Positions 6,001 through 61,162 are shown, numbered from the stretch's first letter. The stretch: DNA of 64,000 nt from Rhizaria sp. SCN 62-66 (GCA_001724265.1 MEDY01000006.1:62001-126000), one strand, 5' to 3'. The notes: a model not told the origin generated them from the sequence alone. Translations and numbers: made by a program.

Positions 6001-9000
6001 ACTCGTAGATTCCCCATCGCTATTGTCTTGATGGCTGAGACGGCTCTTGTTTTTGGCTGCAGGAGGCGTGAGAAACGAGGTGGCCTTCTTGCTGATGTCG
6101 TTGTTCGCGTTGGTTTGACTATAACTGTAGTGAGTGCTGCTCTTATCGTCGTCGTCAGCATCGTTGTCGTCGCGCTGACTGTTGTTACGACTACTGAAAC
6201 TGTTCAAGTTGCTGCCATTGTTCTTATTGCTTGGACTGTTGTAAACAAGCCTGTTCCCCGGTTTGCTGCTGCGGCGAGCATCGGCCTCATCGTCGTTGTC
6301 CGCCTCGTCCGCGCCGTCGTCATCAGCGTCATTATTGTAGCCGGTGGCAAGCGCAGTCTCATCGTCATCATCGTAGTCGTAAATACCGTCGTAGTTTTTA
6401 TCGTCTTCATAGTCATCGTCGCCAAAGTCATCGTCATCATCGTCGTATTCGGACTCTGTGGCAAGATCGATGTTGTCCAAATCTGACCCCCAACCAACTT
6501 CGTCAGAAGCCACAGCGTTGGCGCCTGCGTTAGCACTCGTAACAGCGCCAGTGTGCATGCCAGAGCCCGGAGCAAGAGATGTAGAGGCATGATGCGCATT
6601 TGCTGTGCTTGTAAGTGACTGTGATGCAAGACCGGTGGAGTGACCACCGAAGCATAGCTCAACCCCAGTACCGCTAACAGTGCTTGCAGGGGTGCCTTGT
6701 GTGTTGCTGTTTGCAATAGGAACAAGCGAGATGACGCTAGGACGAGAAAGAGCACCTGCATTACTGACTGCCGTACCGTTGTAACTGTTCAGCGGCGTAG
6801 TATCACTGAAACTGTGGTTTGCACTTTTATTAGCGGTCAGAGTCACGGATGCAGCAGTGCGCGTGCAGTCACAGCCATCACGGCCGCACTCGCAACCGGG
6901 CACTTTCGGCGTTTGTTGCTTCTGCTCTTGCTGCCGGCGCAAGCGCTTCTTTGCATCCGCCTTTGAGAGTGCGTGCGCCGCAGCGGCGAGCAGCGGCGGG
7001 GGCAGCGACGCGGGAACCCAAACGACCTGTGAGTGCACTGCAGCAGCAGCAGCCGCTGCAGCAGCTGCTGAAGTCGTCGTCGACGCGGTAGTGGGCGCAG
7101 TCGGCGTGGAGTTGTTGCCGCTGTTGGAGTTGACAGTGGTCACGACACTGTCGCTCACACTGCTAGGGACGTGCGATGGCGGCACCAGCGCAATGTGAGA
7201 GCCTGCAGGAGGAAACGACTGCGAGCTGCTGGTGCCGACACACAGGCCGCCGGGAGTTGCGTCACCGTCACCCGTGCAAACGGGCACTGGGGCCTGGTGA
7301 TAGTGCGGGATGCCGGCGAGTGCGAGGGGACACGGAAAACGTGGCGGGGGCGGCGAGTGGCCGTGAGCAGTGTGATCACTCAGGCTATCACCGAGATTAA
7401 ACGCGTGGTTGTTGTTGAGATAAGGACATAAGAAGACCTTAGGTGGTGCCACAAGCAGAACTGACTGCGCAGCTCCCGCTGCGTTGGCGCCGGACGACAA
7501 CGCAGCCGCTGCGGCAGCGGTGGCGTCCGATTCAGAGTGTGTCATGCGGCCCGGGCCGTGGCCGGGACCGTGGGCGTGGCTGGAACCGTGAAGATGTGGA
7601 TGGCTGTTGTGGGACGACGTGTGGGGGTGGCTGTGCGCTTGCTGGTGTGGCAGCGTCTGCGGGTGCTGCAGCAAAGCCCATGCAGCAACAAAGAGCAGAA
7701 GCCTCCGCATCAACTCGTGGCGCTGCGACACGACAGCAGCGTTGGCGGTCGCAGATGCAGCCGCCACCGCGTTGGCAGCAGCAATACTGCCAGACGTTGC
7801 AGCTGACGTTGTTGTTGCAGGGGCGGATGCATCAGAGTCAGACTGCGAAATATCAAGCGCAGACCGCACTCCGCCAGTGTAAAACACGCCATTGTTGTTA
7901 TTGATGTTGACCGGGCTCCCGTGTGTACTGTTCGCGAGGGTTTTGGCCAGGGAGTGCGGCAGCGCGACCAATGCCTCGATGGCTCTATACGCTGCCGAGA
8001 TGACGGCTGGAAATGCAGTCACCATCGCCGCAGCAGGCGGCAACGGAGGCAACGGGTACGCCTTGACGCCAGCACCGTCCCCAGCAGTAGCGGCAGTCGA
8101 GTGGAGCACGGGGCCGTTGGCTTGAGCAGAAGACGTGGACGGCGGGCTGATGAGCGTCGGGCCCGGTGGCAGACCTGCGCCGTGGGCGTACCCTGCGCTT
8201 GAGCTCGCGGACGTGAACGAGCCGACCGCGGACGCAGCGTCGGAGCCAGAGACGAAGACCGAGTTTGCGTCGCGACGGGAACGCTGGAAGCCCACTGCCG
8301 CGGACCCGTTGGCGCCAGTGGGAGCAATGATGGGAGCAACCGTGTTGTTAGTGCCCGCACGCACCGGGAAATCACTGTTCGCGCCACCGCTAGTCAGAGC
8401 CGCACTAGGCATCAAGCCATTGCTGGAATTAGCCTTGTTGTTCGAGTCCGTGTTGTTGTTCCTGTTGTTTGTGTTATTGTTGATGGTGTACGCTGAGCCG
8501 ATATCGGAGAACGGAGTGAACAACGAATGTGCGCCTGGGTCCGCCATCGTGCCTGCCTCCGGACAGTCGCCGGCGGTCGCAGACGAGTGGGCGCGGATGT
8601 CAGCAGCAGTCTCCGCGCCGCGGGCGTTGGCGCCCGCGTCCTCGCCAGCGTCGCCGACAGAGTCCATCATCGTCACGCCAAACTAGAAGTCGCCAACAGC
8701 CGTGCTGCCCCAGGTGGCGCGGCGATTCGCCCGTGCCAGTGCCTCCGCGTGGCCCGGCTGCTGCGGCGCCTGCTTCTGCTGTTGTTGTGAGAGCCCCTGC
8801 TGCTGCCCGCCCAGCTCCGAGGGGTTCGCACGACCATTAGTCTTGCCCAGCAGGCTGCCCGCGCTCATCGCTGTCTGCAGCGGGTAAACTGGCGCCGCAG
8901 CCGGTGCAACCGTGGCGTCAGAGACCGGTAAGTGAAACGGAGACCCGGTGTCAGCAAACGTTGCCAGAACGGGTCCGCCCGTAGACCGTGCGTAGCCCAC

Positions 9001-10167
9001 AGCAACATTGCTGCCACCGGCGCCCGCACCAGAAGCCACAGCGGCGGAGTCACCAGTGGTGGTGCCAGCAGCAAGGCCACGAGCGAGAGCGGCGTCACTC
9101 GCGCTCGCAGTGTTGAGCTTACTGTTCGTGCTAGTGGTGATTGCGCCTCCGGTGCGCACAGTGCCGCTCTTAAGAGCGCCGTTTGCAGACTGGCTCGTGT
9201 TAACAGCGGAATGGTGTGACGCCAGCGTCGCCAGCGTGGCAGAAGTCGAACCAGTGGCAGGTCTCGCCTCAGCAGTCGCGGTCGCAGTCGTCGTGGTTGT
9301 GACGGGGGAAGCAAGAAGAGCTTCAGCCGGGTTGACAGTCGTTATTTGCTGCGTCTGAGCCAACGAATGGTCATGAGCATTGACTGTGACTGTGCCGCTT
9401 GCGGCGGCGACAACTACAGCGTTCCTGTTATTGGTGCCGTTATTGATTATGCTGTTGTGATTCGTTTGGCTCAGAAGGCCCTAGTGCGCAGTCACCGCCG
9501 TCCGAACAACCGCGCGCGTGTCTTGCAATGAGAGAAAGCGCATAGTGAGCGGCGTGTATGGCGTCTCATCACCGCTGCAGACATAGCGCATCCACCACTT
9601 GAGAGGGATAACGTACTTCTTCCCCTTCGCGATGTCGAGAAACGCGTTAAATCGGTTAATCACCGTCGTGGCGTTATGGTGTGGGTACAACAGGCGACGG
9701 AACGCAACGCGAACAAGAATAGGGTCGTTGATCCGGTCATTGAGGTCCCAGCACATAATGCCAGAGGAAGTGCACTCGAGAGTGCAGTAGCCACGGGCAG
9801 ATTCGAGGACTAGCCCAACGTGGTCCCAGGGAAAAGATGTAAAGCAGCGGGTGACGCATCCGCCGGTAGACTTAGTACTGAAGAGAATAAGATCGCCGGT
9901 GGCCTGCGGTAAGGATCCGCGGGCGTGAACAGGGGCAGAGTGCGAGTGACAGCGAAACAAAGCAAGGAGTGGAGTGGTGAGTAGTCGGTATGAATTTGCG
10001 GGTTATGACATGTGTGTAAGCGCATAAAAGCGCATCAAATAAGTGCGACTGCAAGTCATCTAGCGTAATCGTGTGCATATTCGGAGATACGTCAGGTTTG
10101 TATAGAGAAAATGACGTACCAGGTCATTTGGTGCAACTCGCAACCGCCCGGCCTCAGGAGCGCTCAT
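1..10167 (-). CDS. Giant permuted papain-like amidase (circularly permuted NlpC/P60, YiiX/peptidase C92-like) protein, 3'-partial; exons 10120-10167 and <1-9903; at least 3317 codons; two in-frame TAG (9481-9483, 8683-8685)
   Basis: ATG at 10167 gives MSAPEAGRLRVAPNDL; a GTACGT...CAG intron (9904-10119, phase 0) joins it to ATGDLILF...WDHVGLV...LECTSSGI...VAFRRL...GKKY. The same frame contains GYFCSSFVAACYIAMGLL...YMPYDF at about 2660-2760. The frame below 8682 appears open to base 1: spot-checked by hand, and the ORF track lists no ORF ending in this frame there. Confidence 0.8.
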
Positions 10168-10602
10168 GAGGTTTCGCTCGGCACCAGATATGAGAGGAAA
10201 AAAGAGACTTCGAGAAAAATTAAAATCAAATAATATAATAAATGAGCGGTTCTATCTTTGCAATCTATTGGGAATGGCAACAACGACCAGCGTGAGGCGA
10301 TATCTGAGAGCCAAGATGGGCTTTGGTCGAGGCCGAGATACTACCCTCCCGCCAAAAAGCACGCCTTTCATATGACCGAGATAGGATGCATTTTACGCAA
10401 TAGCATCATGTAATCAACAAATATGCAGATAGAAATTGCGTATCCAACAAATTAAATTGTGTATTAATCTGTAAACGCACTATATATCTTGATAGAAAAC
10501 AGTTACCCTTGCGATATCTACAGTCAAAGTTCAAATGCACAAAATATCTTCTTCTCTATGGAGGAGGCAGTTTCGCAGACTGGCACAGCGCGGTATTTCT
10601 CG

Positions 10603-13600
10603 TTATGAGTGGAGCTTAGCGACAAGTGTGTCCCTATACCACTCCAACAGCTTCACATCCACTGCAGCCAGCGCCGCCATCGCGTCTAGGGCCGAATCAC
10701 GGGCCTTGTGAAGCGTCACCGCCATGGCTTCAGGGGGCAGCACCACCACCTTCCTGCTGCCTCCTCCTGCGCCTTGACTGGCGGCCCCACTCATGGCAGC
10801 AGCTGAGCCGGCATTTGAGCCATTATTCATAACAACGGTGGTGGTATTATTATTGTTTAATGCTCCTGTGCTACTATTACTCGCGCTACCTGTGGGAACA
10901 TTCAAACTAGTCGAAAAACCAGTGTCTAGACTTGTGTTTGTGGTGAGCGCGCCCGTTGCGGCAGCAACGGCTGCGGGCGCGGCAACGCCTGCTGCTGCTG
11001 CAGCAGCTGCGAGAGCCTCTCCTGCCATAATCACAGCATGTACGGCAACTGATGCGCTATTAGCAGTACTCGCACCATTGGCACAGACAAGAGCACTTGA
11101 GGCGTTGGGAGTTGATCCAGCTGTCGGGCATGACTGGGGTGTTGCTGGAAAACTCGAGCTGCCCGGACCGCTGTTTGTGCGCGCAAGTCCACTGCTAGTG
11201 GAGCAAAGCATAGTCGCGTCGATGCCGACGGCGGTGGCAGTTTGCTGCAGCTCCTGCGCTTGCCACTCCGTCTGCAGCTTGTGAGACTGCGAGTGCAGCA
11301 GCGACTGTGAGCCGAAAGGGTGGAACGAGACGCTGCCGCCGCCACCGAGCCCCCCGCCAATGCCGCCGCCCGCAATGCGGTACGGAGAGCCGCACCAAGC
11401 CAATGCCTCTGTGATGAGCTCACGGCCACTGATGTTGCCAACGTCAGCAGAGGCGCCTTGGTCCTCGTCGTCAGAACTCTCATCACCCGCATCAGTGTTC
11501 GAACCACCAGTGGCGCTGGCAGAGGCAGTGTTGATTGTGCTTGTGTTGACCAATGTTGATGATGACATGAGCGCTGCTGCAGGTGCAATAAGCGGGTTTT
11601 CGATCGAAAGCCACGTCAAAACGTCGTCCACTGGCTGTTGCACCGAGGGGCGAGTCCAGATGTACTCATCGTAGTGTACGACACTACCATACCCATAATT
11701 GAACCCATCAGCAGCACCGGAAACACTCCCAGTGCCAGCACCAGAGCCGTGGGCGCCACTGCTACTGCCGGAGCCAGCGTGACGGCTGCTTTTGCCAGTG
11801 GCCGTGGCGGTGCTGGTAATAGATGAGTTAGTGGGACGGTCCTTGACAGCGCGACTCGACTTCGGCCCATCGGTGCGGCCTAACTTTCCGTCCTGACGGC
11901 TTAACTTCGAGCTCTTCGACTTGCCCCCAGTGGGAGTCACGCTGCCTGCTGGCGCGGCGGTCGAGGTGAGAGCCGGTGAACCTGGGCGCAACAGCGAGAG
12001 AGACGTGGTGCTCGAGAAGGAGCCACGGGGACTCGCCCTAGCACCGCCTGTGTTGGCGCCAGTCGTGGCACTGGCGCTCGCAGAATCGGTGGTCGCGCCT
12101 GCAGAAGATGTCTTGGTCGCTGTGTTGTCATCGTTGTTATTGGCGGTGTGGAGATCTAAACCAGGGCTTGTACGGCCTGTGACAAGTGCATGCTGAGGGG
12201 GGGCAGTACCCGCACTCGCACCAGCGCTGCCACCAGCGGCAGCAACAGCAGCGGCGGCAGCGGCTGCAACGGCTGCGTTATGTTGCTTCGACGCAATGTG
12301 GGGCAACAACATGTCAAACTTGACGCTCTTGCCCGCAGCCACTGCGGACGCAATGGTGTACGACTGTGCCTTAAGCTGCAACAGATACTCAACGTGCCTG
12401 TGGAAACGAGAGAAAAAAGAAGGAAGGATGTTGAGATATCAATTAGCAAAGCACGTAATGATGAATGTAAACTCGTGAATAAGCAAAAAATTTGAGAATG
12501 AGTTTGCAATATGTTCCGTACCTTGCGAGGAGCTCCGGCGCGCGCAGCTGCGAGCGACTGTCTTTGAGACTGCGCACCGTCGTCGCCTGCTTCGAAATGA
12601 GCCGCAGCAACTCGTCCTCGTCGCGCGCCGACACTAGCGCGGCCGGAGCTGGGATATAAGGTACAAACTGGTCGCCGGTGAAAACGAGTTGCGGTGTCGC
12701 GGCGGCACTTGTCGCCGGCCCTGTAAGTGCAGTTGCAGATGCCGCTGTGGTTGGTTCAGTTGTGACAAGCGACTGAGACGCCGATGTTGATGAAGCTGCA
12801 GAATTCGTTGCCGCTTTGTTTGACGCGGCATCAGCTCCAGCGCCGCCTGTAGCAGGACTGGGTCGCAACAGCGACGGCGGCAGCGACTGTGAGCTCAGCA
12901 GACTTGGAGCGTGGGACGATCTGTCAGTCGCAGTGTCGCGGCCGGCGCCGCGGTGAGCGTCGCTGGTACTAGGTGCCGCCACTGCTGAAACATTTGTCAA
13001 ATCTCCCGTGGTCACATTGCTGTTGACAGTTGTCGCAGTTTTCGTTGCACCGGAAGAGCCCGCTGCAGCAACGGTCTTGGTCGCGCTAGTGGGCGACGGC
13101 AGCGGATGCAGCAAGGGCGGTGCGAACGCAGTCGACGGAAACACAGGAGTGCCGATGAGCAAAAAGATACTATCGACTGCGGCAGCAGCAGCGGCACCCG
13201 CAGAAACCGCTGCCGAAGACAGCGTTGCACCTCCGCTTGCATCATCACTCGTCTCAATTACAGCGCCGTCGGACAACGCAGGTGAGAGGTTTGTGTTTGT
13301 ACCGGCAGCACTACTGGTATTGCAAGTACACATGGTATCTGATTGAGTGAGAGTGCGTTTGTTTTGCTGCTTCTTGACTGGAATCGGCGACGGGATCACC
13401 GTGATCACGTTCATGTACCCCACGTAGACGACGCAGGGGTAGCTCAGCCCCGGCGCCAGCGACAGCACGCCGGCCGTCGCGGCGCGCACGCGCTCGGGGT
13501 ACGGCAGACGCAGAGCAATGGGCGGCGTGGGCGGTGACCACGACGCTGCAGCGACGCCGGTCACCCACTCTGAGGCAACCTCCTGCGTGACGGAAGTCAG

Positions 13601-15652
13601 GCCACCAGAGTCAGCGGCACCGCTCGTGTTTGGGCTGTTTGGGGATGAGAGCAGAGATGTCATGGCGGGCGGGGCGGTCAGTGCCATCGGGTGCTGCATC
13701 GGGAAGACGAAAGTTAGGCCGTCCCAGCGGCTTGCGATAAGCTGCGTGGGCGCGTAAAGGCCGCTGGGTGTTAGGGGCCCAGCAGGGATGTAAGAACCAT
13801 CGTTGTAAGTTAAACCACCGTCAACAGCGTAGGTTTTTGCAACAACAGTTGAGTTTCTATCATGCTCCGGAGCAGCAGTGTTGGTATTATTGTTCCTGTG
13901 GTGGACGTTGTGAATACGACAGGCACCAGAGTTGCCGTGAGCGCCCACCGAGGGCTCGTCGGGAGGCAACATCGGCGCCGTCGCGAGCGCGGTCACGCGC
14001 GCACCAAGCGGCACGGGGGCAGACGCGGACAGAGGGGCGACAGGTTCGCAGCGCATAATGGTGTACTTGCACAGATCGGAAATGTAGACATCGCCGGGGC
14101 ACATCGACTCGTCTGTTAAGCGGTCAGGCTGACGTGAGAGATTGTGGTGCTTTGAGATAAGCTCAGGCGGTTGTACAAGAGCGACGCGGTGCATTGACAG
14201 CATGCCAGTGAGCGAACATGAGCAGACGAGAGAACCGCCGGCAGTAATACTCGCATCAGCACTCAAATTCATACTGGCACTAACATCAGCAGTCGGAGCA
14301 TCCAAAGAGCGATTCAGAGAGTGATTGTGAGGGGGAAGCGGGATGGGGACCGTGATCATCACACCAAGCGACTCAATACTCACCGCATCGCCCTCATCAG
14401 TCTCTGCGTCAGTCTCGGATTCCGAATCGGACTGCGAATCGCAGTCGCTGTCGTGATCAGCGCCTCCATCCTCGGTCTGCGCATCCGCTGACTTCTTGCG
14501 CTGCCTGTCGACTGCCTTCATCGCTTTGCGGTGCTTGGACGGGGTGAGCGTCGTGGGGATAGGCAACCACGGCAAAATGTGGATGATACTGAGTGACAGC
14601 AAGTCAGTCCAATTGACAGCGTTGCCGTGTTCGCCGACAAACCCACTGAAGAACCGGGAGAAAGGAATGTTGGTGTTTGAGTTGGTGTTGGTGAGGTAAG
14701 AGCTCACAGACATGAGTCTCGTGAGATCAAGACAAACGCCGCCAACATCGAGACCGACAAACATACACAGCCGCGGTTGTGAGCGTTCTAGTGATAGCGA
14801 CACCTGAGACTGCAATTTTTGTGCCATCTCAGAAGGCTCCTCCGCATTCACCTCAACAAGAGAAGCACTAGACTCGCTGTCGATGTTACTTGAACTCACC
14901 GTGTTATACAACGGCACGTGGTCGTACGACATACTCGCAGCGCACACGGGGAGCTGAAGCGGATGCGGGAACCCGAGCCGCAGCGGAGCGCTCGCCTTGG
15001 AAGCAGTTGCCGCGCGCGACCGTAGCTCAGAGAGCGAGAAGGGCTGGTACAAGTGCAGCGTCGCAGCGCGCGTCGCAACTGTAATAAGGCGCAGTGGCTG
15101 CGACGCTAACTGCGGAGTGAGCGAGACGAGATGTGCGTCGAGTGGGACTTGATACAGCGCGAGTGGGGTCAGTGCAAGAGGATACACTGGATTTGCACTC
15201 GAGCTCTCTGGCTGCGAGGCAGCCGTAGCGTCATTTGTAAATGATCCGTGAAAGCTTGCGTCAATGTGGAAGAGGTATAGCGAGCCCTCCGCCGTTACAA
15301 TGATGATGCCTGTGTCGTCACTGTCGCTGAAGCATCGGCCGACGACGATGCTCGTCACCGGGCCCAGCCCCGCAGCAGTCGCGTACGGCAGCAGGTCCGC
15401 CGTGTCGGGGTCCTCCAGCGACGTGATGAAGGCGTCGGAGGCGAAATCAGTCGCGGCCGCGGAGGACAATGGGTACAGCGCAGGGATGCCCTTGAACAGC
15501 GCCAGGTCACCCTGGGCGTTGGCGACGACGAGGCTGTTGGCGCCGCTGGGGTCGTTGTCCGCGTTGGCAATCGTCACGCACGGGGGCAACGTGGTACCGG
15601 AGAATTTGAGGGTGAGCTTGTCCGGGAGGGACAATTCGCGGGTGCGGAACAT
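10603..15652 (-). CDS. ITFG2: ITFG2-like (KICSTOR subunit, integrin-alpha FG-GAP repeat protein 2) with large low-complexity insertions and C-terminal extension; exons 12522-15652 and 10603-12397; 1641 aa
   Basis: Motifs LKFSGTTLPPCVTIANADND...LVVANAQGDLALFK, IVTAEGSLYLF, ASRWDGLTFV and RAATAGV...PCVVYVGYMNVI resemble ITFG2 blocks in the same order. Intron 12398-12521 (GTACGG...TTTCCACAG, phase 2) joins the two ORFs in frame. Ends TAA. Confidence 0.75.
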
Positions 15653-16173
15653 AGCGTCTTAATGTGGAGAGTTGGTTTAAGCTATAAATAGCGAGGGCGC
15701 TCGCGACTTCTGCGAGTCCGAGAGAAGCTTACGAGAGTGGTCAGAGGTTTGCAATGCCTATCGACGTGAGGTATATCCTGAGCTCTTAGAAACATATTAT
15801 TAAAAAAAAGAAGGTACATCTATAAGTTCAAATTGTGCATTGAGCAGTGACTTCGGTGACGATCAGATTATAGCAATCACCGCGATACAAATCTCCCTCA
15901 ACCTAGCCTAACCCCCAACATCTCGCCACGTGAGCTTGGCAAGCGACACTTATTGAACGTCAAAAAGAAGCATAGAGCGACAATATGATCACAGACAGAT
16001 ATAAATCTAACAGCACACTTTGTATTCGTTGGTCCTAATAACCACATAGAAGTAAAGAAATACAATAAAACTTCATACATATCACCCGCCAACTCCTTTA
16101 TTAAAAGACTCAGCAGTGTGGCCCGAAGAATGATAGTGCACAACTGTGTTCGCGTTAGTAAGGCTCAACCACT

Positions 16174-50600: not shown

Positions 50601-52683
50601 TTACCAGAAGTTGTCGTTCTTGCCCTTTTTGGCAAGCTTCTTCGACTTCTTGGCGTCCTTCTTAGCCTGCTTACTGGCAGTCTTGCTCTTCTCGTCCTTG
50701 CCATCAGTGACCGTAGCAGCAGCTGGCTTTGCGTGGCTCGCGCCAATACTAGCGCCAGAGCTTGTCTTTGAGGGAGTGATGTTGCAATTAAGAGCCTTGC
50801 TGTGTTCAAGGCTAGAGCTCGCGCTCCCCTTCTTGCTCCCCTTCAAAGTGCTGCCACTGCCGCTAGCACAAGGCAGCTGCTTTCCGTCGCTGCGAGTGCA
50901 CGTCTCTTTGCTCTGGCTCTTAGTGCTGCCGGCAAGAAACGAGCCTATGCCGGCGCCAGCGCCAGCGCCGGTGCTAGAAGCCTGCGCTGTGCCAGTCTTG
51001 TTGGAGCTCTTTTTGCTAGCGCCGCCGGCGCTCTCAAAGCAAGAGAACGGGTGTGCGCGTGACATGGAGCCGTGGCCTCGCTCGTGAGCGTCGGAAGGGT
51101 GGAAGACGGAAAACAGGCCGTCCTCGCTCTCGCTACTTGTGCCGCTGCTGGTGCCGGTACTCGTGCCGGTACTCGTACCCTCGCTAGTCCCAGTGCTGGT
51201 GTCAGTGCTGGTACCGGTGCTGGTCCCAAAGCTCGTACTTGTGCTCGTACTCGTGTTGGTACTTGTGCTGGTGCCAGAGCTCGTGCTGGTTGTTGAGGTG
51301 TCGTAGAGGTCGCCGGTCGTAGTCACGCACGCGTCCCCGTCACTGTCGCCCTGGAGCTGGTGCTTGTGCTGCTGCTGAAGTTGGTACTTAATCTGGTACT
51401 GAGGGATGGCGTTGTTGTAACGCGTGTTGTTAATGTCGTCGGGAGCCACATCGTCGTAGATCTCTTGGGGAAACATGTACCTAATCAAATGCGCAAACAC
51501 AGCAATGATGGTAGAGTGAGGAAATGTTTAGAATATTGCGGACTAAACTCAATAACAGTTGATCTTCGTTCCAGGGCACGTACCCTGTTTGCATCTGAGC
51601 CCACGCAGCCTGTGCTGCCTCGAGGCGCGCACGCGCGCGCTCCATCCTGTTCATGCACATCGCAACGTCGTGGCGCGCGATGTCGATGCGGCGCACAACG
51701 CGCGCCGCGCCCCTCGAGCGTCGCGCTGCGCGCTGTTGCTGCTGCTGTTGCTGCTGCTGCTGGTCCTCAGAGCCGCGGATGCGCCCCGGTCCATGTTGCT
51801 CCGACTGTTGTTGCACATCGAAGTCCAGGTGGCGGTGTGTCGGCAGCAGAAACCCCGGGGCTTGCGCGGCGGGCGCGGGGTGCGGGTGCGTCGGCGCGTA
51901 CATGGCCGCGAACGGAGGCGTGTAGCCGCCGAAGCGCGGGATGTACCTTGGACCGTGTGCCGCGGGGCCGTGACCGTGACCATGAGCGTGCGCGTGGTGT
52001 GGAAGCGGGGGGCCGCGGCCGTGGTGGTGCGGCGTCGGAAAGTGGCCGTGGTGCGCCGGGTGGTGCGCGTGGTGGCCGTGGAAGTGACCGTGGTGGTGAC
52101 CGTGGGCCGGAGGCATGTGACCATGGGCAGGAGGCGGCATCGCGCCCCAGAACTCGATCGGGCCGCGAAAACCGCCGCCAATAGCGGCCTGGTGACGCGA
52201 ATACTGTTCGCGCTCTTGCTCGTACTGCTCCTGTGCAGAGCCAGAGCCAGAGCCTTGGTCTTGGCCTCGCTGCTGTTGCTGTGGCTGATGCTGTTGCTGC
52301 GGGTGCAGCGGCGGCTGCTGGTGCCCTTGCTGTGCCATCATCGGGTTGTGCGCGTAGTACGCACCAGGGAGCGGCGGGGGCGGGGCGTGGATGTTGTGGT
52401 CGAAGCCAGGGCCGCCGAAGCTGCCGTGGTGAGGGCCGGGTGCCTGGAAGAAGTGCGGCCGCTGGTTGTTGTTGTAGACGGCAAACGGCGGCAGCTGCGA
52501 CTGCGGAAAACCATGTTGGGGGTGCATGGGGCCACTGCCGAAGTGTCCTCCGGGCGGGCCGTGGAAGCCGGGAGGCGGTCCGAACGCGTGAGGGGCAGCG
52601 TTCGTGCCAGAGGAGCCGCCATGTTGAGTGGCGGGAGGAACACCGCGCATGCGACGATTGTCTTGCGCGATCTTCGAAAACAT
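50601..52683 (-). CDS. Hypothetical His/Pro/Gly/Gln-rich protein with Ser/Thr/Gly repeats and a Lys-rich tail; exons 51584-52683 and 50601-51480; 659 aa
   Basis: Intron 51481-51583 (GTACGT...GATTAG, phase 2) joins ...QMQTG to YMFPQE... in frame. ATG at 52683. Ends TAA. Confidence 0.65.
51145..51295 (-). repeat. Degenerate coding repeat of about 12-nt period encoding (STGT/STST)n
   Basis: Translation TSTSTNTSTSTSTSFGTSTGTSTDTSTGTSEGTSTGTSTGTSSGTSS; repeated gtgccggtactc units on the + strand. Confidence 0.7.
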
Positions 52684-53251: not shown

Positions 53252-56200
53252 TCACCGACGCTGCTCGCCGCTACCGCCCTCGGCGCCTTCCTGCGCCTCC
53301 GGGTCGGGCTCGTGCGACAGCAGCAGCTCCACGGCGGCCTGCATCGTCGCAAGGTAGTAGCCCGTCATCAGGAAGCGTTCCTTGTGCGGCATGTAGTCCT
53401 CGATCATCTGCAGCTGCGCCCACAGGCCGGGGATGCCGCCGCGGCACGCGCGCAGCATGCGTAGCTGGCACCGGACGCCGACGATCGCCGCCGCGGGGAC
53501 AAAGTCAGACGGTTGTCCCGTGGTCTCGATGTTGCTCGCGTCATCACGGGTGTTTCCACGCAGCCACGACGTCCACAGCATGTTGCGCGGAATCAACGGG
53601 CCGTCGGTGCCGCCAACGACTGTGCTCATGCTCTCGGCCGAGTCGACCGCGCCAGAGTACGCCAGCGCACTGGCGTCGGTGCGGAGCGCGCCAGAGTCGC
53701 CCGCCTCCCGCAGCACGCGCTGCGCGAGCGCGGTGTCGTGCAGAGCCGCCATCGTGTCGCTGCCGCCGCCGCGGATGAGGATAAGCGCGAATAAGATCAG
53801 CAGGTCGTCGGCGCCGATGATGATGGGGCGGCGCGGCGGCGGAGGCTTGTTCGCCTTGGCGCTGCTATCAGATGCAGCATGAGGAATCGGTGCGACCGCA
53901 GGAGTCGAGACGGTACTCTCGGTGATGACAATCGCGCTGATAGCAGACGTTGTAGCGCTGGCACCAACGGCCGCAGGGGGCGCAGAGTCCTCGGGATTCG
54001 CGGTGTTACTCTTCTCAGCGTTCGGAGTAGTGTTGTTATCCAGCGAGAACGGGTCTTCGTCGATGTTCAGCCCGGTGAAGGGCAGCTTCTCGTCGCCCGT
54101 GCGCAGCTGCTGCTGCTTCGCCGTAATGCGCGGCGACAGGAACGGCGACTGGCCCGTAGCGATGCCGCCGCTGACATTGCTGCCGGGTGCAGTCAGGGTC
54201 GACGACGAGCGCGGCATTGGCTCACGCGCAGCAACAGCGGCAGCCTTAGAGTCGCTGCTGCCGGATTGCTGTTGCTGTTGTTGCTGCTTCGCGAGCGCCC
54301 GCGCAGCCTCAAGGTCTTTCTGTTGCTGTGCGACGTCGACGCACGCGCAGACGAGCTTGGCAATCTTTGCGATGGCGATGAGCTTATCCATGGGGTCCGA
54401 AATCAGCGGCAGCGCCGAGGCGCGGAGCACCGCGGGCGCGAACGGCGACGTCAGCGGGTGCGCGCGCAGGGTCGACACGCCGCGCGACGCTAGCGGCAGC
54501 ACGTCGTGGGCACTAGCGTGGCTGCCGTCGTGGGCGCGGTGGCCGTTGTCGGCGCTGACGAGAGCGGTCGCACCGATGTGGATGTCGTTGCTGTTCTCGT
54601 TTGCGGCGTTGATGGCGGCCGTGGTAGCGGTCTCATCGAAACACAAGGGGGCTGCGAGGCCAAGACTAAATAAGACACAAAGGAAACAAAGAGTAGAAAC
54701 AATCGTTCAGTAAGTTTGTTGTTGTGCTACTGAAAAAAATGGATACAAATTAAAAGGAGTATTAAAAAATGAACAAAAATATGGCCTACCGAGAGATGAC
54801 GACGGGGCGGAAGCGCGCGACCCTGCGAGCAAGCGCGGCGTCCTTGTGCGCGTTCTGGATGCGGTAGAGGCGCGAGATGACGGTGCCGGTGAAATGGAAC
54901 AGCGTGCGCGAGACCGTGCGGCGGATCACGTGCTCGATGTGCGCGTCCGTGGGCAGCGACAACGGCGTCAGTACAAGCTGAAGCTGCTGTTGTTGGTACA
55001 GATGCCCACTGTCATCAGCGCCAGAGTGGGCGTCACTGGCCGCGGCAGCAGCGTTGTCGCCGGCGCCGCCGTTGTTGTTTGACGCAGCGGCAGCCGCGGC
55101 GGCGGTCGAGGTGGCGCCGAGATACTGCGCGGCGGCCCTGGTGGGGACGAGCTCGAGCACGCAGTCGCTGAGGATCGTCTGTGTGATGTGCGACACGGCC
55201 AGCGTGACGTCCTCGAAGGCCGTGCGGCGCACCTGCTTGAGGTAGCGCAGACTCGGATACGGCACCGGCAGCGGCGCAAAGAGCTCGGTGGGCAGCACGC
55301 GCCGCCCCGTGGGGCCCGCGAAGAGCGAGCCCGGGGGCACGGCCGTCGCAGCGCCGCCCACGGCCGCGCGGTCAACGACGCCGGCGGCAACGTCAGCGGC
55401 GTGCGCGGCGTCGCTGTTGGTGCGGGACTGCGCCGTGGACGCACCGTGACCGTGGCCGTGGGCGGGCGAGGGCGGGTACGAAGGCGCCGCGGACGGGGGC
55501 AGGTCGACGGGGAACCGCGGCGGGGCGCCGGCACCGGTGAGGTAGCGCACGAGCGGACGCAGCGGGGCGAAAAATGCCGCGCTGCCGGCGGCGGCGGAGG
55601 ACAGCGCGACGGTCGCAGCGTCAGTGGGGACGTGGACCTGGCTGGAGCTCGGACTGGGGCTGACGGCCTTGGCGCTGCCGCCGCCAGAGGCACTGTTGGT
55701 GTACGGCTTGGAGACCGAGGCGGAGAAGGCGAACGCGTCCTCGTCGTCGTCGCTGCTCAGGCTGCCGCCGTGGGCCGCACTGCCGCTGCAGTCGTCGCTG
55801 TCACTGACGCCGTCGTCGCTCTCAAAGTCGCTCTGGTTCTCCGTGCTGCCGAGCTTCGCGTTCAGGGTCGTGCTGGTACGGCTGTCTTCAGCCTGATTCT
55901 GACTCTGGCTCTGCAGCTGCGACTTGAGCTGCGCCTGCGCCTGCGCCTGGGAGGTGGAGGCCTTGTGGGGCGTCACTGGGGCCAGCAGCGCCGACAGCGG
56001 CGACGTCACCGCAGGCAGCGACATTGGCGCGCCGCTCGCGGCCGCGGCGGAGGCGGCGGCGGAGGCGGCTGAGGGCAGCAGCGACACGGCGCCGGCGCCG
56101 GGGGCCGACGACGGTCCGGCCGACAGAGCGAGGTCGTCGGAGCTGGCGCTCGCGGCGCCCAAGGGAATGTTCGCGGTGGTCGCGGGCGCGACGGAATGGC

Positions 56201-59200
56201 CGCGGCCGTGCTGCGGCGACTGCGCGAAGCTACTGGGGTAGTTGTTGTTGCTGTTGCTGTGGGGGAAGCCGCTGGGCGCCACGCAGTCGTCCCAGAGCGG
56301 GCGCAGGAACGGGGCGCGCGCGTAGAGGCGGCAAACGTACTCCACAGTCGCGGTGAAGAGCACTGACAGCGGCGAGGGCGGCAGGGACGCGGCGGGGCGG
56401 CCGGCAAGGGCGCCGGACTCAGCAGCCAACCTGGAAATGGAAACAAATTCAAAAGAGACATGCTGTGTTTGAGAAATTAGTTTTACAATTAAAAGAAAAT
56501 TGTTTCGCTCTCATAAACATGAGGCAAAAACTCCAAACAAAGTTTAATTTGTGAGCAAAATCTGCGTACTTGGTGACGAGGTCGTGCGTGAGGACGTTGA
56601 CGACCCTGTGCGAGAGCAGACACAGCGCGGGCACGGCCTCCGGCGGCGGCGTGTGCGGGTTCGCGTGCAGCATCTTCGAGTAGCGCGCGGTGTAGTAGGG
56701 CGCGCCGGAGGGGGAAAACAGCCACGGCGCTGCCGCGGGTGAGACCTCGAGCGGGTTGGGCCCCGCGGCGACCGCGGCGGCCAGCGCGGCTGCGGCGGTC
56801 GAGGACTGCGAGCGGGAGAAGGAGTCGTTGGGGCCGATGCCGGCCTCCTCGTCGTCGCACGGGGTCGCCTCGTCCTCGTTGATCTCGGCGATGAAGTCGG
56901 CGGGCGACAGCGGCGCCGCGGCGAATAAAGACGACAGCAGCGGCTGCAGCAGGTCCTTGCTCGAACCTGAACCAGTCGCGCTCGCGCTAGTGGAGCTAGA
57001 GCTAGAGTTAGAGGTAGAGCTAGAGCAAAAATGGCTGGAGTCTGCTGTCTTGGTGGGCTTGCCGCTGTCCGCGGCAAGAGGCGGCGACAGCGGCGCCGGA
57101 TGCGGGCCCGAGGCGCCGGGGGGGGCCGCGGGCGCCACAGCTATGGGGAACGACAGCGGCTGCGTCGTCGCTGCAGCGCCGCCATCGCCGTTACTACTGT
57201 TGTTCACAGGGACGGATACGGCGCAGACAACGTCAAGGAACTCGTTGAGCGCGTGTGTCGCGTCAGCCACAGGCACCGCGTAAGACGACGACGCGGACGC
57301 GCCCGCGCTCTGCGTCGAGTTGCCGCTCGCAGTGTGGCTCAGACGGGGAGCGTCACTCTTGTTGCTCGAAGTAGCGGCATTGCCGTTGGTGTCATTCGTG
57401 GTGGTGTTGTTCGGTAAATAGATAGAGGCGTCGAAGGGCGACGTCGGTAGCGGCATCAGCGAGTGCTCGTGCAGGTAAGTCTTGAACAGCGACGAGCAGG
57501 CGCCCCCCATGCCTCCGCCCACCACATCGGCCGCAACATTCGCACTCAGGCTGCTGTTGCCGCCGGCAATGGCGCTGAGTGGCGGGAGGGAGATGGCGTG
57601 CGCGCCCACCTGCGTGGGCGTCGCGGCGGCCAGCGCAGCCACCATGCGCTTGCGCATCAGCGAGCGCACGACGCGGAACGCCGAGAGCTTCGCCAGGTCC
57701 ACCGCGGGCTCGCTCGCGGCCGCCAGCAGCTGCGGCGGCGCGGCGGCCTCGGCAGCGGCAGCGGCGGCGGCCAGCGCGGCGGGCGCGGGCGCCACGGGCA
57801 GCGCCAGCACGGGGGTCGGCTGCGCCGTGGCGGCGGCTGCGGCGTCCTGGACGTCGGTCTCGCCCAGCCAGTCTTCGGCGAGCAGGAGCGAGTCGGCGGT
57901 CACGCCGGTCGCAGGCAGTGAGGAGGACTTGCACTCGTCATCGGCAACGGCAACCTGAGTATCGTCGTCGTGCTCGGGAACGTTAACCAGACTAGTGTTC
58001 TTGCTGCCATTGCTCGACTTGCTGATATTCGCAAACACTTCGTCGGTGTCCGCATCAGCGCACACAAGCTGCTCCAAGTGCACCGTCTCGAGCGCCTCGA
58101 CGACGCGCCGCGACTGCAGCGAGCAGGCGCAGCCGCCGAGCCAGAGCGCACGCAACCAGCGCCGGCGCTCGTCGGGGGACTGCGACGCGAGCAGCAGCGT
58201 GCGTTCACCGTACTGCGCGGCGGGGAACGTGACGTAGAAGTACGCCAGGTTCGGGTTCGGCGCGAAGGACGGGTACAGGCTAGCGTTCATCGCGCTGCCG
58301 TTGCCGCCGCCGCTGCCGCCACCGCTCTGCGGGGGCGGACGCGGGCGCGAGGCAGCGGCGGCGGCGGCGGCGGCCTGCGCGGGGGACGAAGCGATGGGGT
58401 ATCCGCTGGCAGAGCGGTGACCGCCGCTGTTGTTCGCGCTCGACGCAGAGCCGCTGTGGCTGCCGCGGTGACCGCTGTTGTTGTTCTGACTGGTAGCATG
58501 ATTCGCGTGGCCATGCCCGTGGCCGTGGATGTTCCCCATCGGCCGCACCGCACTGCCGCCGCCGCCGCCGCTGCTGCCGTGGTGGTGGTGCGCGTCGCCG
58601 CCGCCGTGCGCAGCGGCGTGCCCGGCGCCATTGGGCGGCGAGGCCACGGTGGAGGCGGGCACGGCGTCGAGGGCCTTGATCGTGGCGCCACCGCCGAGCC
58701 AGAACTGCTTCCCGCCGGGTGGGGGCGCCGAGGCCGCGGCGGCGAGCGGGACCTCGCTCTCGTAGATCGATAGCATGAGCAGTTTCGAGGAGAAGATGAA
58801 GAAGCGGCGGTAGGTGCGCCACTTGCAGACCTTGATGAGCCAGCCGGAGTGCAGGATCGGCTCCAGCGTCGGCGCTGGCAGTCGGAAGCGGAACGTGGCC
58901 AAGAGCAATGGGGACGGCGCCGGCAGCGCGCGCGGGGCCGTGTGGTGGCTGTTGGACCGGCTCACCTCCAGCGACTGGAACTGCGAATGTGACTGAGAGA
59001 GTGACTGTGAGCGGCTGCCACGCGTGGGGGTGCTAACGACCATCGCAGTGTCATCTCCGTTTTTGTTGTTGTTGTTGTTGTTGTTGTTTTTGTTATTGCG
59101 ACGGCGACGGTGACCGCGACGCTTGCCGCCTCGCCCGTCAGTCTGCTGCGCCGCCGCCGCCTCGGCCTCAGCCGCGTGAGTAATCGCCAGCGCGGACGCC

Positions 59201-60493
59201 GTCGCCGCGGCCAGCTCGTCCACGGGCGGTCCCCGAGACATGAGGTCCGTGACGCCCAGCTTGACGAAGAGCTGCGCAAGCACGTGCGCGTCCGTGACCG
59301 TGGGGACCAGCCCGCCGCGGAGGGCCCACACGACCAGGTCGGCGGCGTTGAGGCACTTGGCCGCCGCGGGGCCGCCAGGGAGCCCCGCGTTGTGGGCCGA
59401 GGAGGAGGACCACCAGGAAAAGCCGTTGTTGGCTGAGGAGGCGAAGCGGTCGACAACGAGCCCCGCGCGGACCAGGCAGAAGAAGAGCTTGAGCAGGATC
59501 CGGCGCGCGCGCGACGTCTCCAGCGCCAGGTCGCGCAGAGACGGGGTCGGGGCGCCGCTGTCGCCAGCGCCCATGGCCCCGCTGCCCGCGCTGCTGCTGC
59601 TGCTGCTGCTGCTGAGGGCGCTCGCACTGCCTGATAACGACGACGACGCGGTGGGGGAGGCGGGGGAGACGAGGGACGCGATGCTCAGGGTGGACATGAG
59701 CGGACCGGGGGAGTTGGGGACCGCGATCGGCAGTTGCTGCTGGTGGTGTTGCTGGTGCTGCTGCTGCAGCGAGTTGGCGCCGCCGCCGACGACGGCGGTA
59801 AGGTGGCTGATGTGCGACACGAGCCGCTCGCGTGCGTTAAGCAGCGCCACCAGGTCGGCGCGGATGCCGTGCTCCTGCGCGCGCGCCGTGCGCAGACGCT
59901 CCGTAAAGGCCGTGATCACGTAGTCGACCTGCGCGCAGAAGCAAGTGTGGATAAACAAGCGAAAAATCAAAAATTCAAACAGAAAGAATAAAAGACAAAA
60001 AGTGAGACTTGAGTGTCATGGCTTTGTGTGATGTGTGTGTGTGCGTCTTTGTTGCGCAATGGATGCGTACCTGCGTGAAGACGGGCGGGTGGCTGGGGTC
60101 GTCGACCGACGGAGCGCGCGCCCGCGTCTGCGGCTGCGGGGCCATCGCCGGCGAGTGCTGCTGCTGCTGCTGCTGCTGCTGTTGCTGTTGTTGTGAGCTC
60201 CTGCTGCTATCATTGGAGTGCGCGAGCGGTGCAAACATGGCGACAGCGGCCGCCACGGTCGGCGAGGGTGCACCCGCCCCGCCGCCGCCGCCGCTAGAGC
60301 TGCTGCTACTCAGACTGCTGCCGCTGCTGCTGCTGCTGTTGCTGTTGTTACAGCTCGTGTGGCCGCTGGCCGCGTTGCTGCTGCTGGAGGCGAGCAACGC
60401 AGCGAAGGGAAAGGCGTGCACCATAATAGACGAGACCATCGACGACGACGTGTTGTTGGGGTTCGCCGCCGGCGCGGGCACATGCGAGTGGCT

Positions 60494-60546
<53 letters not shown>

Positions 60547-61162
60547 CTTGACCGTTGGAGCTTGAGCTGGAGCTTGTGGCAGCAGCAGCGGGTGCGGCGG
60601 ACGGGGCGGGGCGGCGCCCGGCAAGCGGCTGCGGCCCCGCGAAGGGCAGCGCGGCGGGCGGGAGCGTGGGGAGCAGCGCGGCGGCCTCCCGCGAGAGGTC
60701 GAGCCCTTCGCTCACGACGCGCGACAGACTGGCCGCGATCGTCGTCAGCCGGTCCAGCCGCGCGTCAGCCGTGTTGCGCCGGTCCAGCAAGGCCTCGATC
60801 TCGGCCCACACCAGCTGCGGCGTAGGCAGCGACGCGTCACCGGCCTCAGGCGCGGTCGCTTGACTGGCGGCAATGGCGGCGGTGGGGGAGGCAGCGGAGG
60901 AGCGCTCGAGGGCGCGCTCCAGTTCGTTGCGGAGGGCCTCTTCGCGCACGTCAATGTCCTTGCGCTTGGCAGTAAGGTCGGCAAGCTCGCGGCGAAGAAA
61001 GTTAAGCGCGTTGAGCAAGTGGGACTTGGCTTGGAGCTTGATACTCGAAGTCTAGTTGAGGTGGAGGCGCAGACGCTTCTCGTCCTCTTGGAGGAGCCAG
61101 GATGCGCTGAGGTGCACCACCAGCTGCTCGTGGGGAGACAGAACGGAATATCCCGTGGACAT
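53252..61162 (-). CDS. VPS9-domain (Rab5-family GEF) protein with N-terminal coiled coil, DEP-like segment and PH domain; exons 60071-61162, 56570-59928, 54790-56430, 53252-54665; 2501 aa; in-frame TAG at 61052-61054
   Basis: VPS9 motifs PMDKLIAI, IIIGADDLLILFALILIR and GYYLATMQAAVELL. PH motifs ILHSGWLIKV...RRFFIF...YE and LLLASQSPDERRRWLRAL. Three phase-compatible introns (59929-60070, 56431-56569, 54666-54789). ATG at 61162 gives MSTGYSVLSPHEQL... Ends TGA. Confidence 0.8.
59061..59096 (-). repeat. (AAC)n coding microsatellite, poly-Asn
   Basis: Run of gtt triplets on the + strand, encoding NNKNNNNNNNNK. Confidence 0.75.
60158..60192 (-). repeat. (CAG/CAA)n coding microsatellite, poly-Gln
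   Basis: Run of ctg/ttg triplets on the + strand within exon 1 of the VPS9 gene. Confidence 0.85.
60500..60546 (-). repeat. (CAG)n coding microsatellite, poly-Gln
   Basis: About 15 ctg triplets on the + strand with one ttg interruption. Confidence 0.85.

What the first reader, a model, noticed from the sequence alone, without database searches (positions are those of the whole stretch)
8683..61054. Probable variant nuclear genetic code: UAG read as an amino acid while UAA and UGA remain stops
Seen: six in-frame TAGs in three genes (8683, 9481; 48477, 48549, 49005; 61052), each inside uninterrupted coding-like sequence with no nearby AT-rich intron. I saw no in-frame TAA, TGA or frameshift in those frames. 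All 11 modelled termini are TAA (10603, 22298, 31012, 46180, 46458, 50601) or TGA (16174, 19987, 27587, 53252, 62236). The bases after each TAG vary (TTT, GGC, GGC, TTT, TAC, ACT), so there is no shared readthrough motif. Established: nuclear UAA and UAG are almost always reassigned together; UAG-only reassignment is known from few lineages, such as Iotanema spirale (Gln), the rhizarian 'exLh' (Leu) and some ciliates. Inference: this organism has a tRNA-CUA and an eRF1 that ignores UAG. The contexts (H*G, F*F, W*G, N*F, D*Y, N*T) fit Gln in polar low-complexity sequence but do not prove it. Whether the lineage is already described cannot be told from this window.
Basis: partly seen in the sequence, partly recalled or inferred. 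Interest (0 to 1): 0.95.

Follow-up and report, generated by a model that had tools for sequence, protein, structure and literature searches.

The report
UAG read as sense codon
An unidentified, GC-rich flagellated microbe from wastewater reactors seems to read the stop codon UAG as an amino acid while still stopping at UAA and UGA, a rare change to the nuclear genetic code.

Summary
All six TAGs are in frame on the minus strand, inside three genes. About 17,776 modelled codons of 12 genes hold 6 in-frame TAG, 0 TAA and 0 TGA. All 11 gene ends seen are TAA (6) or TGA (5).

New evidence supports translation through TAG:
- Gene 1 is a permuted-papain (Peptidase_C92-like) protein. Its His half lies upstream and its Cys half downstream of both TAGs. 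All nine aligned homologs carry both halves in one chain.
- Every TAG-flanking segment scores as coding in the TAG frame.
- A contig from a cDNA-labelled run splices an upstream exon in frame onto gene 2. It then runs 3.6 kb unbroken across three unchanged TAGs.
- An independent DNA run keeps the same three TAGs.

Not settled:
- The amino acid is unknown.
- The tRNA-CUA and eRF1 could not be examined, because no genome is held.
- The taxon is unknown: an intron-poor, flagellum-bearing eukaryote from wastewater or bioreactor metagenomes.

Verdict: a probable UAG-only reassignment, a new member of a known but rare kind.

The parts
9481..9483 (-). In-frame TAG no. 1 of gene 1 (context H*G). It lies 140 codons into exon 2, just after the N-half of the C92-like domain.
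8683..8685 (-). In-frame TAG no. 2 of gene 1 (context F*F), in the low-complexity insert.
1..10167 (-). Gene 1, a giant Peptidase_C92-like protein. ATG at 10167-10165. Exon 1 is 10167-10120 (16 codons). The intron is 10119-9904 (GTACGT..CAG). Exon 2 runs from 9903 off the window end. The N-half with the His motif is at 9903-9484. The C-half with the Cys motif is at about 2760-2650, some 2,270 codons further on.
49005..49007 (-). In-frame TAG of gene 2 (context D*Y).
48549..48551 (-). In-frame TAG of gene 2 (context N*F).
48477..48479 (-). In-frame TAG of gene 2 (context W*G).
46458..49962 (-). Gene 2 long exon: 1,167 codons ending in TAA at 46458-46460. In run X5 it is joined at acceptor 49962 to the exon that ends at 51584. 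The junction is in frame (GG|C). One contig covers 46319-49962 with no gap and no change at the TAGs.
50601..52683 (-). Gene A. ATG at 52683. Exon 1 runs to 51584. The intron is 51583-51481 (103 nt; the joint is seen in X5). Exon 2 is 51480-50601 and ends in TAA. Exon 1 is also the upstream partner of the gene 2 exon.
61052..61054 (-). In-frame TAG of gene 3 (context N*T), codon 37 after the ATG at 61162-61160.
53252..61162 (-). Gene 3, a multi-exon protein with a VPS9 domain and a weak PH match. Exon 1 is 61162-60071, and the first intron is 60070-59929. Exon 2 is 59928-56570, and the second intron is 56569-56431. Exon 3 runs from 56430 to about 54790. The third intron starts G|GTAGG at 54789. 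The last exon ends in TGA at 53252.
10603..15658 (-). Neighbour gene with a weak Itfg2 match: two ORFs joined by an AT-rich intron (about 12522-12399). Ends in TAA at 10603. No in-frame TAG.
16174..19500 (-). Vps52 gene, ending in TGA at 16174. GC3 is 0.89. No in-frame TAG.
19987..21978 (-). Seven-exon coiled-coil gene with GTACG-type introns, ending in TGA at 19987.
22298..23953 (-). Glutamine cyclotransferase (Glu_cyclase_2) gene, ending in TAA at 22298.
24638..27589 (+). Short-chain dehydrogenase gene, ending in TGA at 27587.
28042..31014 (+). Low-complexity gene with no family match, ending in TAA at 31012.
31694..46182 (+). CFAP47/HYDIN/CFAP65-like ciliary gene. Overall GC is 72% and GC3 is 0.88-0.89. 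Introns start at about 35339 (running to about 35463) and at about 41068. Ends in TAA at 46180. About 4,765 codons hold no TAG.
61570..62238 (+). Small gene ending in TGA at 62236.

Best explanation
The organism behind this contig uses a nuclear code in which UAG is a rare sense codon, while UAA and UGA remain the only terminators. UAG occurs at about 0.3 per 1,000 codons and only in genes with weaker GC3 bias.

Shown here:
- In three genes the ribosome must pass TAG to make the product that the DNA encodes. This means a complete C92-type domain in gene 1, the 230 coding-like codons after TAG in gene 3, and the 848 codons after the first TAG in gene 2.
- The TAGs are in the DNA of independent samples.
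- The TAGs are neither spliced out nor edited in a spliced transcript contig.

Inferred, not shown:
- Decoding is by a tRNA with anticodon CUA, which by wobble rules reads UAG but not UAA.
- The eRF1 has lost UAG recognition, as reported for other UAG-only lineages.

The encoded amino acid is not determined. Context argues weakly against Gln. There is a weak, post hoc hint of an aromatic residue.
For: 1. Counts: 6 in-frame TAG against 0 TAA and 0 TGA in 17,776 modelled codons of 18 exon segments. Of 11 termini, 6 are TAA, 5 TGA and 0 TAG.

2. Gene 1 domain:
- The 140-aa N-half found 40 relatives at E<=1e-3.
- The 9 relatives aligned all carry the N-half, a variable low-complexity insert and a C-half Cys motif in one chain.
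- 3 of 5 relatives scanned hit Pfam Peptidase_C92.
- The window's C-half lies 2,414 codons into the frame, downstream of both TAGs. It matches P0005 at 1e-10 and P0003 at 5e-11.

3. Coding log-odds peak in the TAG frame in 9 of 9 flanking segments, and the other frames are full of stops.

4. Start codons:
- The 265 codons between the gene-1 TAGs have their first ATG only about 55 codons before the second TAG.
- In gene 3, the ATG is followed 36 codons later by TAG (codon 37), and the next in-frame ATG is about 190 codons on.

5. Run X5 (labelled RNA-Seq cDNA):
- It shows two GT..AG joints on the gene strand.
- One of them (51584 to 49962) is in frame with gene 2.
- That contig continues over 46319-49962 with 0 gaps and changes only at 46435 and 48785, so three TAGs are kept.

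6. Independent DNA run X4 covers 46913-49088 with one change, at 48785.

7. If the TAGs were random nonsense mutations, the chance that all six are TAG is 0.026-0.039.
Against: - There are only six sites in three genes, all in poorly conserved or low-complexity sequence.
- No TAG aligns to a conserved column, so the amino acid is unknown.
- No tRNA-CUA and no eRF1 could be examined.
- There is no peptide evidence.
- The tool marks X5 as 'RNA? (probably DNA)', and its joints have sides of only 30 and 34 letters.
- None of the listed poly-A RNA (X10) pieces bridges a TAG.
- TAGs of gene 1 and gene 3 were not checked in any second sample beyond what one search covered.
- Zero TAG among 11 termini is weak on its own: P is about 0.04-0.15 if TAG normally ended 16-25% of genes (my arithmetic).
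- Eight of the 12 genes (11,867 of 17,776 modelled codons) have no TAG at all; gene A has none in its own two exons.
Confidence: 0.8

Rival explanations
1. mRNA editing restores the codon. The TAGs are genuine stops in the DNA but are changed in the transcript, either A-to-I (UAG to UGG, Trp) or U-to-C (UAG to CAG). The comparison is the stage-specific A-to-I correction of premature UAG codons recalled for some filamentous ascomycetes. That is recalled from memory, and no paper was read on it.
For: Only TAG is found in frame, never TAA or TGA, which is what single-site A-to-I at a U-A-G motif would allow. Four of six TAGs sit next to F, W or Y, and Trp is among the residues with the most aromatic neighbours. 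Two of four X5-specific differences are T>C on the + strand, which is A>G in the mRNA sense, at 51202 and 54972.
Against: - The spliced X5 contig shows no change at 48477-9, 48549-51 or 49005-7.
- RNA run X7 does not show the 51202 change (0 of 7.52 depth), so that change looks like a strain SNP.
- TAG would still be expected at some gene ends, but 0 of 11 have it.
- Three of 12 genes would need rescue, far more than in the recalled fungal case.
- The organism has a ciliary gene, so it is not one of those ascomycetes.
Confidence: 0.05
2. Gene-specific or context-dependent readthrough. UAG is still a stop genome-wide, but at these sites it is leaky or has a dual meaning that depends on position, as in the ambiguous codes of some ciliates and Blastocrithidia.
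For: TAG is rare and confined to low-bias genes. No dedicated tRNA has been seen. Near-cognate tRNAs can read UAG (abstracts seen in the listing).
Against: - There are two or three TAGs per gene in two genes, so even 30% readthrough per site would leave under 10% full-length product (my arithmetic).
- The bases after TAG vary: TTT, GGC, GGC, TTT, TAC, ACT.
- No TAG is found at any of 11 termini.
- The catalytic Cys half of gene 1 lies behind both TAGs.
Confidence: 0.08
3. The three genes are young pseudogenes, or loss-of-function alleles carried in the population, and the TAGs are plain nonsense mutations.
For: All three genes are fast-evolving and low-complexity. Two of them have no detectable relatives. 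TAG is the most likely nonsense product given the codon usage, at 55-58%.
Against: - There are six nonsense codons with no frameshift and no TAA or TGA in 4,832 codons.
- P(6 of 6 TAG) is about 0.03.
- Frames stay open for 265, 2,893+, 151, 23, 672 and 327 codons after the TAGs, with full coding signal.
- The same TAGs are fixed in samples of other studies and years.
- Gene 2 is present, spliced, in a cDNA-labelled run.
Confidence: 0.05
4. The TAGs are true stops or lie in unrecognised introns, and the flanking ORFs are chance open frames of GC-rich DNA.
For: GC-rich DNA here does give many spurious ORFs of 150-1,000 codons, mostly antisense to real genes.
Against: - The coding score is positive only in the TAG frame.
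- The domain halves of gene 1 sit on either side of the TAGs.
- All 11 or so introns seen are AT-rich and 103-216 nt, unlike the GC-rich TAG surroundings.
- The X5 contig has no gap across gene 2.
Confidence: 0.02

Closest known systems
Iotanema spirale (Fornicata) nuclear code: UAG = Gln, UAA/UGA = stop (PMC5304391, abstract and sections 7-8 read)
   Same: Only UAG is reassigned, and UAA and UGA are kept as terminators. No UAG was found at gene ends there. It is a flagellate, as the ciliary gene suggests for this organism.
   Different: - Iotanema has 204 in-frame UAG in 126 genes, against 6 in 12 genes here.
- It is a gecko-gut endobiont known from a transcriptome, whereas this organism comes from wastewater and bioreactors.
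- UAA dominates its termini (104 of 119), against 6 of 11 here.
- Gln was shown for Iotanema, whereas context disfavours Gln here.
- Relatedness could not be tested.
Rhizarian exLh (Sainouroidea): UAG = Leu, UAA/UGA = stop (PMC5304391, section 6 read)
   Same: A UAG-only reassignment in a non-ciliate. UAG is rarer in highly expressed genes, which parallels its absence from the high-GC3 genes here.
   Different: exLh has 384 UAG in 71 genes. It is insect-associated. Leu was proven there from conserved columns, whereas here Leu is neither supported nor excluded (rank 15 of 20, a test with low power).
Phyllopharyngean ciliates and Protocruzia (UAG = Gln or Leu), and Scotinosphaera (UAG = Ser), as listed in PMC11687900 (passages read)
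   Same: UAG is decoupled from UAA. In two ciliate MAGs of that paper, tRNA-CUA genes were found, which is the mechanism inferred here.
   Different: Those ciliates have 27-54% GC and short telomere-capped contigs (12.5-13.5 kb). This window is 55-72% GC and lies on a contig of at least 168 kb. TGA is the least used stop in those ciliates, against 5 of 11 here.
Peptidase_C92 (YaeF/YiiX permuted papain-like amidase, PF05708), the family of gene 1
   Same: The N-terminal His motif comes before the C-terminal Cys motif. Relatives of the N-half hit PF05708.
   Different: The window protein itself gives no Pfam hit at E<=1. It carries an insert of about 2,270 residues between the two halves. The inserts of the relatives run to at least 400 residues.

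Membership tests
UAG-only stop-to-sense nuclear genetic code | In-frame UAG inside coding sequence of several independent genes | tested here: met
   6 TAG in 3 of 12 genes. Coding score peaks in the TAG frame on both sides of each.
UAG-only stop-to-sense nuclear genetic code | UAA and UGA absent in frame and used as terminators | tested here: met
   0 TAA and 0 TGA in 17,776 modelled codons. Termini are 6 TAA and 5 TGA. Reading through TAA adds only about 24-25 codons.
UAG-only stop-to-sense nuclear genetic code | UAG not used as a terminator | tested here: inconclusive
   0 of 11 termini are TAG. The sample is too small on its own: P is about 0.04-0.15 under 16-25% normal usage.
UAG-only stop-to-sense nuclear genetic code | UAG positions align with one conserved amino acid in homologs | tested here: inconclusive
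   No TAG falls in an alignable column. Searches around the TAGs of gene 2 and gene 3 found no relatives. The gene 1 TAGs lie in the variable insert. There are no internal paralogs.
UAG-only stop-to-sense nuclear genetic code | UAG present in mature mRNA (not spliced, not edited) | tested here: inconclusive
   3 of 6 sites are covered by one spliced contig of X5, unchanged. The library type is uncertain. The other 3 sites are not covered by any RNA piece listed.
UAG-only stop-to-sense nuclear genetic code | Cognate tRNA with anticodon CUA | not testable with these tools
   0 tRNA genes in the window. No genome is held.
UAG-only stop-to-sense nuclear genetic code | eRF1 N-domain change that abolishes UAG recognition | not testable with these tools
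   eRF1 is not in the window. No genome is held.
Peptidase_C92 (PF05708), gene 1 | Match to the family profile | tested here: not met
   The whole protein and both halves give no Pfam hit at E<=0.01 or E<=1. The link is transitive only: 3 of 5 relatives scanned hit PF05708 at 2.9e-6 to 3.8e-7.
Peptidase_C92 (PF05708), gene 1 | Permuted order: His-bearing N-half, then Cys-bearing helix, in one chain | tested here: met
   The invariant D27-H28 of the N-half is present. The Cys motif 2,414 codons into the frame aligns to the same motif of P0005 and P0003. This holds only if both TAGs are read through.

The most novel reading that the evidence does not exclude
The contig comes from a so far undescribed, non-ciliate flagellate lineage that is widespread in engineered wastewater systems. 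In it UAG alone has been captured recently by a tRNA for a residue other than Gln or Leu, possibly an aromatic one (Tyr or Trp, each one base from UAG). UAG = Tyr or Trp with UAA kept as a stop would be a nuclear code variant that none of the papers read here reports. The low UAG density would mark an early stage of codon capture in a GC-rich genome.
Probability: 0.15. Interest if true: 0.9.

Novelty: new member of a known kind. Interest (0 to 1): 0.72.

Why it matters
Nuclear codes that separate UAG from UAA are known from only a handful of lineages: Iotanema, the rhizarian exLh, Scotinosphaera, Protocruzia and some phyllopharyngean ciliates (PMC5304391, PMC11687900).

- **Evolution of the code.** Each new case tests whether tRNA-CUA capture together with an eRF1 change is the general route. 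This one would be in a GC-rich, intron-poor genome with very sparse UAG, which is useful for the 'codon capture' versus 'ambiguous intermediate' debate.
- **Availability.** The organism recurs in wastewater and bioreactor samples of several studies. A genome, its tRNAs, its eRF1 and even metaproteomes are therefore within reach.
- **Annotation.** Standard-code gene callers truncate its proteins. The public collection already holds a 91-aa fragment of gene 1 that ends exactly at TAG 9481.

Tried and rejected
- **Whole genome:** none is held.
- **tRNA and Rfam scans of the window:** nothing found.
- **More DNA of the organism or its relatives:** all four searches returned nothing. These were metagenome contigs with the gene 3 exon and with P0044, and genome contigs and viral contigs with Vps52.
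- **Orthologs across the TAGs:**
  - Gene 2 residues 1-560 gave none among proteins of 641-2,043 aa.
  - Gene 3 residues 1-150 gave none among proteins of 200-637 aa.
  - Shorter and longer proteins were not searched.
- **Internal paralogs of the TAG flanks:** only chance matches.
- **Taxon:**
  - Cluster look-up of 10 proteins gave no names or accessions.
  - Two Atlas searches gave only broad eukaryote families.
  - The ciliary-gene search gave one unnamed relative at 54% identity.
  - My guesses (archamoeba, fornicate, sainouroid, zoosporic fungus, green alga) stayed untested and are not claimed.
- **PDB by sequence for the gene 1 N-half:** no hit.
- **Poly-A RNA run X10:** the listed pieces lie at 49112-49398, 60678-60953 and elsewhere, but none bridges a TAG. 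X7 covers only 50268-51234.
- **Shared bases after TAG:** TAGTTTG and TAGGGC each occur twice. I judged this coincidence.
- **Literature:** searches for an already described wastewater eukaryote with this code and for Scotinosphaera found no such report.

Full report
**What the window is**

The window is a 64-kb piece of a compact eukaryotic chromosome with 55-72% GC. It holds about 12 genes in three strand blocks, separated by intergenic spacers of roughly 0.1-0.7 kb. Introns are few, 103-216 nt long, AT-rich and GT..AG, often starting GTACG.

Recognisable genes are:
- Vps52, a glutamine cyclotransferase and a weak Itfg2 match;
- a short-chain dehydrogenase;
- a 14.5-kb CFAP47/HYDIN/CFAP65-like ciliary gene;
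- a VPS9-domain gene.

The organism therefore builds a cilium or flagellum. No genome is held for the window. Near-identical DNA occurs in bioreactor, wastewater and related metagenomes of several studies. The taxon could not be named.

**Checking the observation**

All six sites read TAG on the minus strand, and all eleven termini are TAA or TGA as listed. Reading TAG as sense fuses the ORF pieces of three genes. Reading TAA as sense adds only about 24-25 codons beyond gene ends.

I built a codon log-odds table from 6,233 stop-free codons of seven other ORFs. With it, all nine segments that flank a TAG score best in the TAG frame, at +0.09 to +0.49 per codon. Their other frames are negative except two positive antisense frames (+0.07 and +0.25), and apart from the two shortest pieces they carry many stops.

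Across 18 modelled exon segments (17,776 codons) there are 6 in-frame TAG, 0 TAA and 0 TGA. Other TAGs that appear when frames are extended lie in a splice donor (54786-8), just before a start codon (52684-6), or in 5' leaders.

**Gene 1**

A first exon of 16 codons (ATG at 10167) and an AT-rich intron precede exon 2, which starts at 9903. I searched every protein of the representative library with the 140 residues up to TAG 9481. This gave 40 relatives at E<=1e-3. The best hit is a 91-residue public fragment of this very gene that ends at the TAG.

The nine relatives I fetched and aligned all have the same plan in one chain: an N-half with an invariant Asp-His, a low-complexity insert of variable length, and a C-half with a Cys motif. 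Three of the five relatives scanned match Pfam Peptidase_C92, the permuted papain-like YaeF/YiiX family.

The window has the Cys motif 2,414 codons into the same frame, downstream of both TAGs. It matches P0005 at 1e-10 and P0003 at 5e-11. The window protein itself gives no Pfam hit, so family membership is by transitive homology only.

The 265 codons between the two TAGs contain no ATG until about 55 codons before the second TAG. That stretch therefore cannot be a separate gene.

**Gene 2**

Laying contigs of four runs on 46300-62300 gave three results:
- An independent DNA run (X4) covers 46913-49088 with a single change, at 48785.
- Run X5, labelled RNA-Seq cDNA, has a joint that removes 51481-51583. 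This is a 103-nt GT..AG intron of the upstream gene A.
- X5 has a second joint from the same donor (51584) to 49962.

Reading the sequence shows that the second joint is in frame. Exon 1 of gene A ends in phase 2 (GG), and 49962 is the third base of a codon of the gene 2 frame. That contig then runs from 49962 to 46319 with no gap. Its only changes are at 46435 and 48785, so TAGs 49005, 48549 and 48477 are present, unspliced and unedited.

Caveats: the tool rates X5 as 'RNA? (probably DNA)', the joint sides are only 30 and 34 letters, and contigs drop rare variants. The two canonical joints argue that X5 holds cDNA. So does its depth, which ranges from 0 to 98 along the stretch.

**Gene 3**

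The ATG at 61162 is followed 36 codons later by TAG (codon 37). After the TAG come 327 codons of strongly coding sequence (+0.38 per codon). The first in-frame ATG among them is about 190 codons on. None of the listed RNA pieces bridges this TAG.

**Rival explanations**

- **Random nonsense mutations.** These would be TAG 55-58% of the time, so six of six has P of 0.026-0.039. There is also not one frameshift or other stop in 4,832 codons.
- **RNA editing.** UAG to UGG or CAG is not seen in the X5 contig. The two A>G-sense differences of X5 (51202, 54972) look like strain SNPs, because RNA run X7 lacks the first.
- **Leaky readthrough.** This fits poorly with two or three TAGs per gene and with varied downstream bases.
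- **Chance ORFs or hidden introns.** The coding scores, the split domain and the ungapped contig exclude these.

**Which amino acid?**

This is not determinable here. No TAG lies in an alignable column.

I trained a neighbour-residue model on the window's own proteins. It ranks Gln last of 20, with a log-likelihood ratio of -9.4. In calibration, six true Gln sites rank Gln first 67% of the time. None of the six TAGs has a Q within three residues, although 50% of Q codons do (P = 0.012-0.016). One caveat is that repeat dynamics may keep a new Gln codon out of poly-Q tracts.

Four of the six TAGs touch F, W or Y. The background rate is 8.8%, and for any single residue P is at most 0.013, with Tyr, Trp and Cys the best. 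I saw this pattern first and tested it afterwards, so it is only a lead.

**Comparison with known cases**

UAG-only reassignment is established in the following lineages:
- Iotanema spirale (Gln; 204 UAG in 126 genes);
- the rhizarian exLh (Leu; 384 UAG in 71 genes) (PMC5304391, abstract and sections 6-8 read);
- Scotinosphaera (Ser), Protocruzia and some phyllopharyngean ciliates, by report (PMC11687900, passages read).

In Iotanema an eRF1 GTS-motif change is linked to the reassignment (PMC9161772, passage read). Amoeboaphelidium is cited for UAR = Gln, not UAG alone (PMC5304391 and PMC11687900, passages read).

The present case differs in three ways. UAG density is much lower, at about 0.3 per 1,000 codons, and UAG is absent from all segments with GC3 of 0.86 or higher (8,504 codons). 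GC content is high and the contig is long, at least 168 kb. The habitat is also different.

Three full-text searches found no report of such an organism.

**Verdict**

The reading 'UAG is a sense codon, UAA and UGA are stops' is well supported for this locus (confidence 0.8). The mechanism (tRNA-CUA plus altered eRF1) is inferred from known cases and is untested. The amino acid and the taxon remain open. I rate it a new member of a known, rare kind.

Noticed in passing
window 46319-52683 (-): One 5' exon (52683-51584) is joined in run X5 to two alternative 3' exons, at similar contig depth (31.9 and 33.2). One is 51480-50601. The other is the 3.5-kb gene 2 exon starting at 49962, and that junction is in frame. 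'Gene 2' is therefore probably an alternative last exon of gene A, giving two proteins with a shared 366-residue N-terminus.
   Followed up: partly
window 31694-46182 (+) versus its neighbours: The ciliary CFAP47/HYDIN-like gene has 72% GC and GC3 of 0.88-0.89. Adjacent genes have GC3 of 0.58-0.67. GC3 varies from 0.58 to 0.89 among neighbouring genes, and TAG occurs only in genes with GC3 of 0.60, 0.60 and 0.83.
   Followed up: partly
window 1-9903 (-): The C92-like protein carries about 2,270 residues of low-complexity sequence (A/S/T/N/Q-rich) between the two halves of its catalytic domain. Relatives have shorter inserts at the same place.
   Followed up: partly
the six TAG sites: Four of six TAGs have F, W or Y as a direct neighbour, against a background of 8.8% (P<=0.013 for any residue). 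Two pairs of sites share the bases after TAG, TTTG and GGC. This is unexplained. It was spotted in the data first and then tested.
   Followed up: partly
window 51202 and 54972: Run X5 differs from the window by T>C at both places, which is A>G in the sense of the minus-strand genes. At 51202 this turns Asp into Gly in a T/S/G repeat. DNA run X4 and RNA run X7 keep the window's base at 51202. It is probably a strain polymorphism.
   Followed up: no
window 62300-64000: The last 1.7 kb is AT-rich (44% GC), with no ORF that scores as coding, no tandem repeat and no RNA family match.
   Followed up: partly
P0044 (public protein, 2,716 aa): This is the only relative found for the ciliary gene (54% identity over 34% of the query). 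It has the same Ala-rich, GC-rich style and may come from a related lineage. Its contig is not in the searchable metagenome collection.
   Followed up: partly
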